Shown here in pieces: positions 3,001 to 6,000 of a DNA stretch of 64,000 bases (positions are counted from its first letter, which is position 1; each line of letters starts with the position of its first letter). Made by a program: the position numbers. Source of the stretch: Ylistrum balloti (taxonomy: Eukaryota); assembly GCF_031769215.1 (NCBI RefSeq), contig NW_026782084.1, positions 62,001-126,000 on the forward strand, read 5' to 3'.

Positions 3001-6000
3001 TTTCTACATTAATAGTATGGTGGAATGTCAGCCTGAACAGACTTCTGGTGCAAAATATTGCTGATGTTCATAGCATCAACTCCCTTATTTACAAACTAAG
3101 TTGTTGGAGGATCGCGGCCATCTGTACTTTTAACCTTTTTAGGTCTAAAGAGCCTGATTTGTGTCACATCATCAATAATTTTGTGAAGTCTCCAAGCTAG
3201 TTTCCTTAGGTCACGAACAGAAGTTTTAGCTGAATCCACTTGAAGCTTTTGTAGCACGTGGAGATGAAGCGAATATAACGTAGTTCGAACATGATGGACA
3301 CCTAATGCTTGCTGTAAAGTATCCAGAAGACAAAATGTGAAGTGAAATGTATTCATTCTCTCCAGTATACCTGTTTACTTGCTGGTCTCGTTGACATAAT
3401 CTGTCTTATAGTTTTCAGAAGGTGCATGATTAACATTGCAGGTGTAGTCCGTGATAGAGAAAACGCTCAAGAATCTGGTCATTCTCGTAGATTTTTCAGT
3501 AAACTAAAAATTCCTTTCTTGATATTTGAACCTATTTTTATTGAAAATTAGTCTGATTTACGATTTTGCTCACATTTTTTAGATCAGATTATGTAACAGC
3601 TTTAAAAAAATTTAAATGTTTTATAATCATAAAAAGACGCCTATAACAGTTACATTGGTTTCATTAATAAAGCCATATGCTATTAAAATAATGTAGATTA
3701 TCTAATTATCTTAAAGTTTTTGAAATTTTTCAAGCTCCTCCATAAAAGTATGTATTCTATCAATATTTGTAAGCAGAACATCAATTTTGAATTTGAATAA
3801 AAAATCTGTTGATATATCGAAATCTGTTTTGCAAATCGACGAAATCTCAATGTCGAAAATGATTTTTGCAACTGTGTGTTGCTAACATAGCATGTACGTT
3901 TTCTTTGGTTGAAAACTAAGTATAGCTACGGTATTAAACCAATTAACCAATACAATTTCCGGAATACTTTTTACATTTTAATTTGATTCTAATTGCGGTT
4001 TCCATCTTTAATGTAGTCACAGTATTACAGGTTGTTTGGTAAAAAGTCTAGGTAGCTCTGATTTCCTTATATTTATATAATTATAATGACTGTGTATGAC
4101 ATCATGTCCCCGATGATACAAAAAGGATACTTTACTGAGGGTTACTGTTGCTTTCAATGCAGTGTTTGGTACTCTGTCGTTAAGTATGGGAGTAAGATAT
4201 ATATATTTGAAAAAAAGGCTTCCGAGTAAGCGAACAACATATCATTTCCATAAATGTATTCAAATAATGTTCTGTTGTATCTTACGATTAGATAGGCTGC
4301 CATGTCAACATTGGTAAAAACACAATGTTTTTTTTTATTCCAGTTATCAATGAAGATGTCCATTTTTGGATAAAGGTAAGGAAATAAAAAAGAAAGAAAA
4401 ATATTTGTGGTTTCATTTCAATTTATTGGAATGTTTAAATCAACAATACATAACCGTTTGTTCCCGTTGTCCCTCCTTAGTATTTGGCACCTAAAAAGGA
4501 TACATATCTATTAATAATTGACGTCAGCATAGTAACTGTTAGTTACTGTGTTTTCAGTATTGTGCTTCTTATCGCGAACAAAGCAATGGTTTTCTGACCT
4601 GTTTGAGAAATTTTTATTTGATTATTTTATAAATTTTGGTTTATAGATGCATTTTTAGTTGAAATTACTTCGCATACTCAGTGTGCTAAATAACCTACCT
4701 TCTTGTCCACCGAATCCTCCACTTCCACCAAAGCCTCCACTACCTCCGAATCCGCCACCATTGCTTCCTCCAAATCCACCGCTTCCTCCGCCGCTCATTC
4801 CTCCGAATCCACCTTTTCCTCCAAATCCACCATTACCTCCAAATCCACTGCTACCACCAAATCCACCACTTCCTCCAAGGCCGCCACCGTTCATTCCTCC
4901 GAATCCACCTTTTCCTCCAAATCCACCATTACCTCCAAATCCACCATTACCTCCAAATCCACTGCTACCACCAAGTCCACCACTTCCTCCAAGGCCGCCA
5001 CCGTTCATTCCTCCGAATCCACCTTTTCCACCCAATCCTCCAAATCCGCTGCTACCCATACCTCCGAATCCTCCACTACCACTTCCTCCAAATCCACCAC
5101 TTCCACCGCTGCTCATTCCTTCGAATCCACCTTTGCCTCCAAATCCACCACTACCTCCAAATCCACCGCTACCTCCAAATCCACCGCTACCTCCAAATCC
5201 ACCGCTTCCTCCCAATCCGCCATCGCTCATTCCTCCGAATCCACCACTTCCCCCAACGCTTCCTCCTTTGCCACCAAAACCACCTGCATTTCCACCGAAT
5301 CCTCCACTACCTCCGAGACCAGCAGCTCCTCCAAGTCGTCCACTACCTGCTCCGCTCATACCACCAAATCCTCCTTTTCCTCCAAGTCCACCACTACCAC
5401 CGAGTCCACCACTTCCTCCAAACCCTCCACTGCTTCCGAAACCTCCACTTCCTGCGCTTCCCCCGCTGCCTCCTCCAAAACCACCACTTCCTCCGCCATA
5501 TTTCCCTAAATCGATACATAACTTTCATTTAATGTATGGACGTAGAAACGCTTATTATTTATCGCTCAATTCTACAGGCTTCAGTGCTGAAATAATATTA
5601 GTTTTTATTCACCAAAAGTGAATGTATTGTATGTGAAAGGTAAAGGTAATTTCATGATCGATAGCTTATTTATGCAGGTTTGTACTGTTTCATTTACCGT
5701 CTCTTCCTAATTAAACATCCATGTTTACTTATAATCCTTTTAACTAATACTCGTATATGTAGCACATTCCATCTTACAATGATGGCAATTGTGTTGATTT
5801 AGAGTGTTGTTTGTTTTTTAATATTATTAATTTCATACTCTATCTTTGATAAACAGCGATCATAACATACCTTGCAAGTTTATATTTGGTAATTTATCTT
5901 GTTTAGATGTATGTTGATATTAAGATTAATGATAAATGACAGAAACAAGTGTGGTCATTCAGGATCATGTTGATGTTTTACGTCAATGTAATGTAAACCT

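What the first reader, a model, noticed from the sequence alone, without database searches (positions are those of the whole stretch)
4477..4490. Dedicated terminal micro-exons supply a basic-residue plus C-terminal Tyr tag
Seen: four genes end their CDS in a 14-20 nt exon: GAKY* (4490-4477), GAKY* (12838-12825), RGSY* (42876-42889), GGGKSY* (55944-55963). In A1 and A2 the only mature-chain tyrosines I see are N-terminal GKY and C-terminal AKY; A3 starts GTY and one splice option ends TYIY. Established: molluscan ligament proteins have tyrosine-derived cross-links. Inference: end-linked (telechelic) rubber design in which a conserved micro-exon encodes the cross-link site and the big repeat exon sets chain length between cross-links. 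The ORF track misses all these ends.
Basis: partly seen in the sequence, partly recalled or inferred. Interest (0 to 1): 0.66.

Follow-up and report, generated by a model that had tools for sequence, protein, structure and literature searches.

The report
Abductin-like genes end in tyrosine exon
Five neighbouring genes for glycine- and methionine-rich hinge-rubber (abductin-like) proteins of a bivalve each seem to finish in a short last exon that adds a few small residues and a final tyrosine, a chain-end feature already described for scallop abductin.

Summary
The four listed tails are at the stated coordinates, with GT-AG borders and phase-1 splits.

A short Tyr-ending tail alone is near chance. 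81 of 6155 AGs give one, about one per gene. The support is:
- Best acceptor among the Tyr candidates in 5 of 5 genes.
- Same 14-nt format in 4 of 5.
- TAY-TAA invariant.
- AATAAA 37-79 nt after the stop in 4 of 5.
- 14/14 identity between A1 and A2, inside 57%-identical flanks.
- Unconserved read-through tails.

These are the coding starts of ordinary last exons, not micro-exons.

The genes fit published descriptions of abductin. Reviews already speculate on dityrosine links through its two terminal tyrosines, and say the cross-links are unknown.

Rubber arithmetic argues against the big exon setting the distance between cross-links.

There is no transcript or orthologue evidence: four protein searches found nothing related.

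The parts
4477..4490 (-). A1: coding start of the last exon, split codon G|GT then AKY and TAA
   Evidence: The acceptor tcctttttag scores 0.6, the best of 4 Tyr-tail candidates. It is 14/14 identical to A2.
4422..4427 (-). A1: AATAAA, 50 nt after the stop
4491..4698 (-). A1: last intron (208 nt, GT-AG, phase 1)
   Evidence: It is 57% identical to the A2 intron.
4699..5505 (-). A1: big repeat exon (268 whole codons; 60% Gly, 13% Ser, 10% Phe; Tyr only at residue 2)
6003..6057 (-). A1: signal-peptide exon CDS (55 nt, MNTYICLTALLLVSVNAA plus one base)
12825..12838 (-). A2: coding start of the last exon, G|GT then AKY and TAA
   Evidence: Acceptor score 3.6.
12783..12788 (-). A2: AATAAA, 37 nt after the stop (a second one at 12771-12776)
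13034..13690 (-). A2: big repeat exon (218 whole codons)
14366..14420 (-). A2: signal-peptide exon CDS (55 nt)
20333..20346 (-). A3: coding start of the last exon, G|GT then GGY and TAA.
20282..20287 (-). A3: AATAAA, 46 nt after the stop
20636..21451 (-). A3: big repeat exon (271 whole codons; 62% Gly, 13% Met, 7% Pro, 7% Phe; PFGGMGGGK-type repeats; Tyr only at residue 2)
22897..22951 (-). A3: signal-peptide exon CDS (55 nt, MNAFICLAFCLIVAVSSA plus one base; Cys at 6 and 10)
40188..40293 (+). B1: first coding exon (signal peptide, 35 codons plus one base)
40573..42168 (+). B1: big repeat exon (531 whole codons; 36% Met, 28% Gly, 14% Pro, 7% Lys; Tyr at 124, 153, 199)
42876..42889 (+). B1: coding start of the last exon, C|GA (Arg) then GSY and TAA
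   Evidence: The acceptor ranks 1 of 79 AGs.
42968..42973 (+). B1: AATAAA, 79 nt after the stop
50077..50173 (+). B2: first coding exon (MLSITLFLKPFLLLGLVFGYSAGG...; Tyr at residue 20, at or next to the likely signal cleavage site)
52792..52875 (+). B2: extra 84-nt phase 1-1 exon
53559..55259 (+). B2: big repeat exon (566 whole codons, no Tyr; composition measured on 563 of them: 54% Gly, 31% Met, 5% Lys)
55944..55963 (+). B2: coding start of the last exon, G|GT then GGKSY and TAA (20 nt)
   Evidence: The acceptor is weaker: score 0.8, rank 13 of 86. AATAAA comes only 249 nt after the stop, at 56212-56217.

Best explanation
The window holds a tandem cluster of five paralogous genes for secreted, low-complexity elastomer proteins of the abductin kind. 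Abductin is the rubber of the bivalve hinge ligament.

All five genes share one architecture:
- a short exon with the signal peptide;
- one large repeat exon (B2 has an extra 84-nt exon);
- a short last exon.

Every intron is phase 1. The last exon completes a split Gly or Arg codon, adds 2-4 small or basic residues, then an invariant Tyr and TAA. It carries the 3' UTR and the poly(A) signal.

The tail is inherited from the ancestor of the family. It has been kept while the repeat chemistry diverged: Gly/Ser/Phe in A1 and A2, Gly/Met/Pro/Phe in A3, Met-rich in B1 and B2.

Most likely function (inferred, not shown): the C-terminal Tyr and the Tyr near the mature N-end are oxidative coupling sites. 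Candidate chemistries are dityrosine or higher, DOPA-quinone, or Tyr-Lys. These sites would tie chain ends into the network. The regularly spaced internal Lys, and perhaps Met, would supply most of the network junctions. The chain is therefore end-anchored but not purely end-linked.
For: Shown by sequence
1. Exon models checked one exon at a time are all GT-AG and phase 1. Tails end in Tyr-TAA in 5 of 5 genes.
2. In the five-way alignment the invariant columns are the AG, G.G at the exon start, and TA.TAA. 4 of 5 coding pieces are exactly 14 nt.
3. The proposed acceptor is the best-scoring Tyr-tail candidate in 5 of 5 genes.
   - Its scores (0.6 to 6.0) lie within the range of the genes' other acceptors (-4.9 to 8.9).
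   - Its ranks among all AGs within 2 kb are 3/98, 2/108, 2/99, 1/79 and 13/86.
   - Combined with the 1.3% base rate, my hand arithmetic gives a joint chance of about 6e-8, or about 2e-6 leaving out A2 as a recent copy of A1.
4. A1 against A2:
   - coding exons are 92-100% identical and introns 41-57%;
   - the 14-nt tail is 14/14 identical between a 57% intron and a 57% 3' UTR (0.57^14 is about 4e-4, by hand);
   - among the other Tyr-tail candidates listed for A1 and A2, I saw no second matching pair (read by eye).
5. Read-through tails differ entirely in length and sequence: GRLFSTLSMRSNFN, GKIFRSFN, GMFI (one search used a donor three bases off for A3), RK, GKLITKLLGIKFKFPFINFLNT.
6. AATAAA lies 37-79 nt after the stop in 4 of 5 genes.
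7. Tyr census: only near the two chain ends in A1, A2, A3 and B2.

Family assignment
- Reviews describe Argopecten abductin as having a 19-residue signal peptide, Cys 6 and 10, Tyr 4 and 20, and a third conserved Tyr.
- They also give a GGFGGMGGGX repeat, about 58% Gly, and 'two terminal Tyr groups' in the secreted chain.
- A3 has Cys 6 and 10, Tyr 21, FGGMGGG repeats and 62% Gly. A1 and A2 have Tyr 4, Cys 6 and Tyr 21.

Network argument: set against the moduli quoted.
Against: - No transcript evidence is available, so intron retention with the intronic stops cannot be excluded from sequence alone. The A1 intron itself contains an AATAAA.
- No orthologue was recovered, so conservation beyond this one locus is untested. 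This covers and 39/44; I read 9 of the 23 hits and took them for compositional look-alikes.
- A Tyr-ending short tail arises by chance about once per gene.
- The B2 acceptor is mediocre (rank 13 of 86) and its poly(A) signal is far away.
- B1 breaks the two-ends pattern: three internal Tyr and none at the N-end.
- My acceptor score is a home-made heuristic with recalled consensus weights.
- Nothing here shows any chemical modification of the Tyr.
- The moduli come from other scallops' ligaments, and the protein concentration is assumed.
Confidence: 0.6

Rival explanations
1. Pure telechelic rubber. The chains are linked only through the two terminal Tyr, so the length of the repeat exon sets the distance between cross-links.
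For: - Tyr is confined to the two ends in A1, A2, A3 and B2.
- Reviews speculate on dityrosine through the terminal Tyr.
Against: - Ideal-network arithmetic gives E of 0.05-0.25 MPa for these chain lengths. The quoted values are 1.25-4 MPa.
- A dityrosine between two ends gives linear chains, not a network (inference).
- The review itself says multiple cross-links are needed and mentions Lys-Met sulfilimine.
- B1 has internal Tyr.
Confidence: 0.12
2. The last exon is real, but its Tyr has no cross-linking role. The exon would be kept because it supplies the stop codon, 3' UTR and poly(A) site, or because a last intron helps expression. The Tyr would be a retained ancestral residue, or serve processing or secretion.
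For: - The exon carries the poly(A) signals.
- The cross-links of abductin are unknown.
- Four independent lineages is a small sample.
Against: - Tyr is the only invariant residue of the tail, while the other positions vary: AK, GG, GS, GGKS.
- Tyr is otherwise almost excluded from these chains, which points to selection on that residue.
Confidence: 0.2
3. There is no terminal splice. The coding sequence reads through the donor to the first intronic stop, and the Tyr tails are chance finds by a reader looking for them.
For: - Base rate of about one Tyr-tail candidate per gene.
- No RNA evidence.
- An AATAAA lies inside the A1 intron.
Against: - Strong GTAAG/GTAGG/GTATG donors sit exactly where the repeats stop in 5 of 5 genes.
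- The read-through tails are unconserved even between A1 and A2.
- The 14-nt tail is an island of 100% identity.
- The format is the same in 4 of 5 genes.
- Published abductin cDNA is described as having a conserved terminal Tyr. Read-through would not give that.
Confidence: 0.07

Closest known systems
[quoted passage not shown]
   Same: - Secreted, with a signal peptide of about 19 residues.
- N-terminal Cys and Tyr at nearly the same positions.
- Gly-rich, Met-containing short repeats with FGGMGGG.
- About 60% Gly.
- Tyr at both ends of the secreted chain.
- Regularly placed Lys.
   Different: - The chains here are 2-5 times longer: 218-566 repeat residues against 116 in the secreted protein.
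- A1 and A2 have only 3% Met.
- B1 and B2 are 31-36% Met, and B1 is 14% Pro.
- The exon structure of the published gene is unknown to me. No held paper contains the phrase 'abductin gene'.
- Direct alignment was not possible.
LMP and other methionine-rich insoluble ligament proteins of the pearl oyster Pinctada fucata (PMC7591529, passages read)
   Same: Met-rich, low-complexity, insoluble hinge-ligament matrix proteins, like B1 and B2 in composition.
   Different: Homology and C-terminal residues were therefore not compared.
Resilin (insect rubber, dityrosine and trityrosine network)
   Same: It works alike in principle: a disordered Gly-rich chain with Tyr-based oxidative cross-links.
   Different: - Resilin has many Tyr spread through its repeats, and a chitin-binding domain.
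- These genes have no Pfam domain and keep Tyr at the ends.
- They are not members of the resilin family.
Tropoelastin gene organisation
   Same: Cross-linking and elastic segments sit in separate exons. [quoted passage not shown] Here the C-terminal Tyr has its own exon.
   Different: - Elastin alternates many Lys-Ala cross-link exons with hydrophobic exons and uses desmosine chemistry.
- Here there is one repeat exon, and the N-terminal Tyr lies inside it.

Membership tests
Abductin | N-terminal signal peptide of about 19 residues (secreted protein) | tested here: met
   All five first coding exons start with Met and a hydrophobic stretch. In A1-A3 this is 18 residues plus the split Gly. This was read by eye; no signal-peptide predictor was available.
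Abductin | Conserved Cys at positions 6 and 10 and Tyr at positions 4 and 20 (as described in PMC13052691) | tested here: inconclusive
   - A3: Cys 6, Cys 10, Phe 4, Tyr 21.
- A1 and A2: Tyr 4, Cys 6, Tyr 21, no Cys 10.
- B1 and B2 do not fit: B1 has one Cys at 15 and no Tyr; B2 has Tyr 20 and no Cys.
- Source.
Abductin | Gly/Met-rich repeat domain with consensus GGFGGMGGGX | tested here: inconclusive
   - A3 has repeated PFGGMGGGK/GGMGGGMGG units, a close match.
- A1 and A2 have GGFGG units with Ser or Asn and only 3% Met.
- B1 and B2 are Met-rich without Phe.
- Sources.
Abductin | About 58-60 mol% Gly and about 1% Pro | tested here: inconclusive
   - Gly: 60, 62, 62 and 54% in A1, A2, A3 and B2, but 28% in B1.
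- Pro: 7% in A3, 4% in B2, 14% in B1.
- Source.
Abductin | Third conserved Tyr at the C-terminus ('two terminal Tyr groups' in the secreted chain) | tested here: met
   Met in 5 of 5 genes under the spliced models. It is not met under read-through.
Abductin | Alignable sequence homology to the published Argopecten abductin | not testable with these tools
   - Four protein searches returned no abductin.
- HMMER is blind to diverged members because of composition bias: A3 against B2 scores E=5 although BLAST without composition correction gives 58-62% identity.
- The paper is not held.
Abductin | Expression in the mantle tissue that secretes the inner hinge ligament; presence in the ligament | not testable with these tools
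   No expression or proteome data are available.
Resilin | Chitin-binding (R&R) domain and Tyr-containing repeats | tested here: not met
   No Pfam family for any of the four big exons scanned, A1, A3, B1 and B2 (A2 was not sent). The repeats lack Tyr.

The most novel reading that the evidence does not exclude
The Tyr-stop last exon is an old, shared chain-end cassette that chemically different ligament elastomers have all kept. These are the Gly/Ser/Phe type, the classic Gly/Met/Phe type and the Met/Pro/Lys type. One oxidative enzyme could then couple the ends of unlike chains, or couple ends to the Lys of unlike chains. The hinge rubber would be a covalently joined blend of several block types whose proportions tune its stiffness and resilience.
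Probability: 0.2. Interest if true: 0.6.

Novelty: new member of a known kind. Interest (0 to 1): 0.33.

Why it matters
The cross-link chemistry of abductin is still unknown (review of 2023).

If the gene models hold, they give exact C-terminal peptides to look for by mass spectrometry: ...GAKY, ...GGGY, ...RGSY and ...GGGKSY. They also show that the terminal Tyr has been kept in relatives whose repeats have changed completely. That is the best sequence-level argument so far that the residue matters.

They further show that the locus encodes a small family of rubbers with very different Met content. This is useful for people designing abductin-like materials.

It is an incremental result. The terminal-Tyr idea is already in print, and nothing here tests the chemistry.

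Tried and rejected
Protein searches with single exons only. None gave a relative.
- A1 big exon: nothing at E<=1e-3 among 7999 scored candidates.
- B1 big exon: 21 hits at E<=10. I read 4 of them. They share only Met/Gly-rich patches, and two are abalone proteins with a different architecture.
- First 140 residues of the A3 exon, sized to catch a 136-residue abductin: 3 weak hits, none named.
- Full library scan with the A3 exon: 23 hits at E<=1e-3. I read 9, and all are compositional look-alikes.
- Local tests: HMMER finds A1-A2 but not A3-B2, so these blanks say little.

Other blanks.
- ESM Atlas: no usable hit for A3 or for the 31.8-kb ORF.
- Pfam: nothing for four big exons.
- Papers: the original abductin paper and Gosline 2002 are not held.
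- Seven literature searches found no held paper on abductin gene structure. 'Abductin gene' occurs in none.

Rejected readings.
- Other Tyr-tail candidates (4567, 4564, 3503, 11974, 20340, 42879, 43523, 55298, 55578, 56141): all score below the proposed site.

Not done.
- The joined, spliced proteins were not built, searched or looked up. Exact-sequence cluster look-up was therefore not used.
- Genome contigs holds only bacteria and archaea, so it was not scanned.
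Full report
WHAT IS IN THE WINDOW

The window is AT-rich eukaryotic DNA (GC about 0.30-0.35). It has five islands of strong GC skew. Each island coincides with a long low-complexity open frame.
- Three lie on the minus strand: A1 near 5 kb, A2 near 13 kb, A3 near 21 kb.
- Two lie on the plus strand: B1 near 41 kb, B2 near 54 kb.

I read the flanks and checked the models one exon at a time. All five genes share one plan:
- A short exon with the start codon and a hydrophobic signal peptide. 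Its CDS is 55 nt in A1, A2 and A3.
- One large repeat exon of 657-1701 nt. B2 has an additional 84-nt exon.
- A short last exon.

Every intron has GT-AG borders and every intron is phase 1.

The spliced proteins were never joined. All searches and translations were done exon by exon, and split codons were read by eye.

THE OBSERVATION

- A1: 4490-4477 (split Gly, then AKY, TAA).
- A2: 12838-12825 (the same 14 nt).
- B1: 42876-42889 (split Arg, then GSY, TAA).
- B2: 55944-55963 (split Gly, then GGKSY, TAA).
- Sources.

It lies at 20346-20333 (split Gly, then GGY, TAA), behind a good acceptor and 46 nt before an AATAAA.

The Tyr census also holds.
- In A1, A2 and A3 the repeat exon has Tyr only at its second residue.
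- B2 has none in 27 + 566 residues. Its one other Tyr is at residue 20 of the first exon, at or next to the likely signal cleavage site (read by eye).
- B1 is the exception, with three internal Tyr and none near the N-end.

IS IT MORE THAN CHANCE?

Taken alone, no.
- 81 of 6155 AGs in the window (1.3%) are followed, in phase 1, by a tail of at most six codons ending in Tyr.
- With 55-78 AGs in the 1.5 kb after each donor, about one candidate per gene is expected.
- 4, 2, 3, 3 and 4 were found, the proposed sites included.

The case rests on other points.
1. Acceptor quality.
   - The proposed site is the best acceptor among the Tyr candidates in 5 of 5 genes.
   - It scores within the range of the genes' other acceptors.
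   - Among all AGs within 2 kb it ranks 3/98, 2/108, 2/99, 1/79 and 13/86.
   - The score is a heuristic of mine with recalled consensus weights.
   - By hand, these ranks and the base rate give a joint chance of about 6e-8, or 2e-6 without A2.
2. Five-way alignment. The invariant columns are the AG, G.G at the exon start and TA.TAA. Four of five pieces are exactly 14 nt.
3. A1 against A2, which are recent copies.
   - Coding exons are 92-100% identical and introns 41-57%.
   - The 14-nt tail is 14/14 identical, between a 57% intron and a 57% 3' UTR.
4. Read-through products share nothing: GRLFSTLSMRSNFN, GKIFRSFN, GMFI, RK, GKLITKLLGIKFKFPFINFLNT.
5. AATAAA follows the stop by 37-79 nt in four genes and by 249 nt in B2.

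I put the reality of the terminal splice at about 0.85. B2 is the weakest case.

These are not micro-exons in the usual sense. They are the first 14-20 nt of ordinary last exons that continue through the 3' UTR.

WHAT THE GENES ARE

No database relative was found.
- Three word-indexed searches and one full scan gave only compositional look-alikes, as far as I read them: 4 of 21 hits and 9 of 23 hits.
- Local tests show that HMMER's composition correction hides all but close relatives in this family.
- Pfam and the Atlas gave nothing.

The assignment therefore rests on published descriptions of Argopecten abductin in two reviews. I read section 3.2.5 and passages of PMC9999432, and section 2.4 of PMC13052691. 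They describe:
- a 19-residue signal peptide;
- Cys at 6 and 10;
- Tyr at 4 and 20, and a third conserved Tyr;
- a GGFGGMGGGX repeat;
- about 58% Gly;
- 'two terminal Tyr groups' in the secreted chain.

The genes here compare as follows.
- A3: Cys 6, Cys 10, Tyr 21, FGGMGGG repeats and 62% Gly.
- A1 and A2: Tyr 4, Cys 6 and Tyr 21, but little Met.
- B1 and B2 are Met-rich relatives that share the exon plan. In composition they recall the Met-rich ligament proteins of the pearl oyster (PMC7591529, passages). Those sequences are in supplements that I could not open.

HOW IT PROBABLY WORKS

The terminal Tyr is the only invariant residue of the tail, and Tyr is almost excluded from the rest of these chains. 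That points to selection on this residue.

The likeliest role is oxidative coupling of chain ends. This is inference. The 2023 review states that the cross-links of abductin are unknown, and that dityrosine through the terminal Tyr is unvalidated speculation.

That fits poorly.
- An ideal end-linked network of these chains would have E of about 0.05-0.25 MPa, assuming 400-600 kg protein per m3.
- The reviews quote 1.25-4 MPa.
- The implied 10-48 residues between effective junctions is close to the Lys spacing of 14-38 residues.
- Coupling two ends by one dityrosine only lengthens chains and gives no network.

I therefore favour end anchoring plus internal Lys (perhaps Met) junctions.

NOVELTY

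These are new members of a known family, showing a known chain-end feature. Two points are possibly new but modest:
- the exon arrangement;
- its retention across chemically different paralogues.

I found no held paper on abductin gene structure. That is a statement about this library only.

WHAT STAYED UNCHECKED
- Transcripts.
- Orthologous loci in other bivalves.
- The original abductin sequence.
- The closed supplements.
- Any chemistry.

Noticed in passing
window 51091-52742 (+), inside the first intron of B2: A 47-nt minisatellite, 35.5 copies, 94% matches. It fills most of the intron between the B2 signal exon and the 84-nt exon.
   Followed up: no
window 47165-48101: A 57-nt tandem repeat, 16.4 copies, 95% matches, between B1 and B2. 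It gives a long spurious open frame on the minus strand.
   Followed up: no
window 1446-1864 and 34822-35228: Two more tandem arrays (30/120-nt and 45/90-nt units). They produce open frames in several frames and are probably non-coding satellites.
   Followed up: no
window 31824-32294 (-): An open frame of 157 residues rich in Met, Asn, Gln, Pro and Phe, lying between the two gene groups. It has no Pfam family and no Atlas hit. It could be an exon of another matrix protein, or nothing.
   Followed up: partly
window 62064-63340 (-): Two open frames with weak, sub-threshold matches to the end of the phage-integrase (tyrosine recombinase) family (E=0.007) and to the QRICH1 domain (E=0.0033). This may be a remnant of a tyrosine-recombinase mobile element. 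That reading is from recall and was not tested.
   Followed up: partly
window about 60.9-61.3 kb: The window holds 369 N.
   Followed up: no
window 6447-6646 and 14838-15037 (-): The A1 and A2 promoter and 5' UTR exon regions are 85% identical, with a TATA-like cataaata upstream of the A1 5' UTR exon. The introns next to them are 41-54% identical.
   Followed up: partly
window 52792-52875 (+): B2 alone has an extra 84-nt exon with phase 1 on both sides. It encodes a Gly/Lys-rich, Tyr-free segment. This is consistent with exon gain in a family where all introns share one phase.
   Followed up: partly
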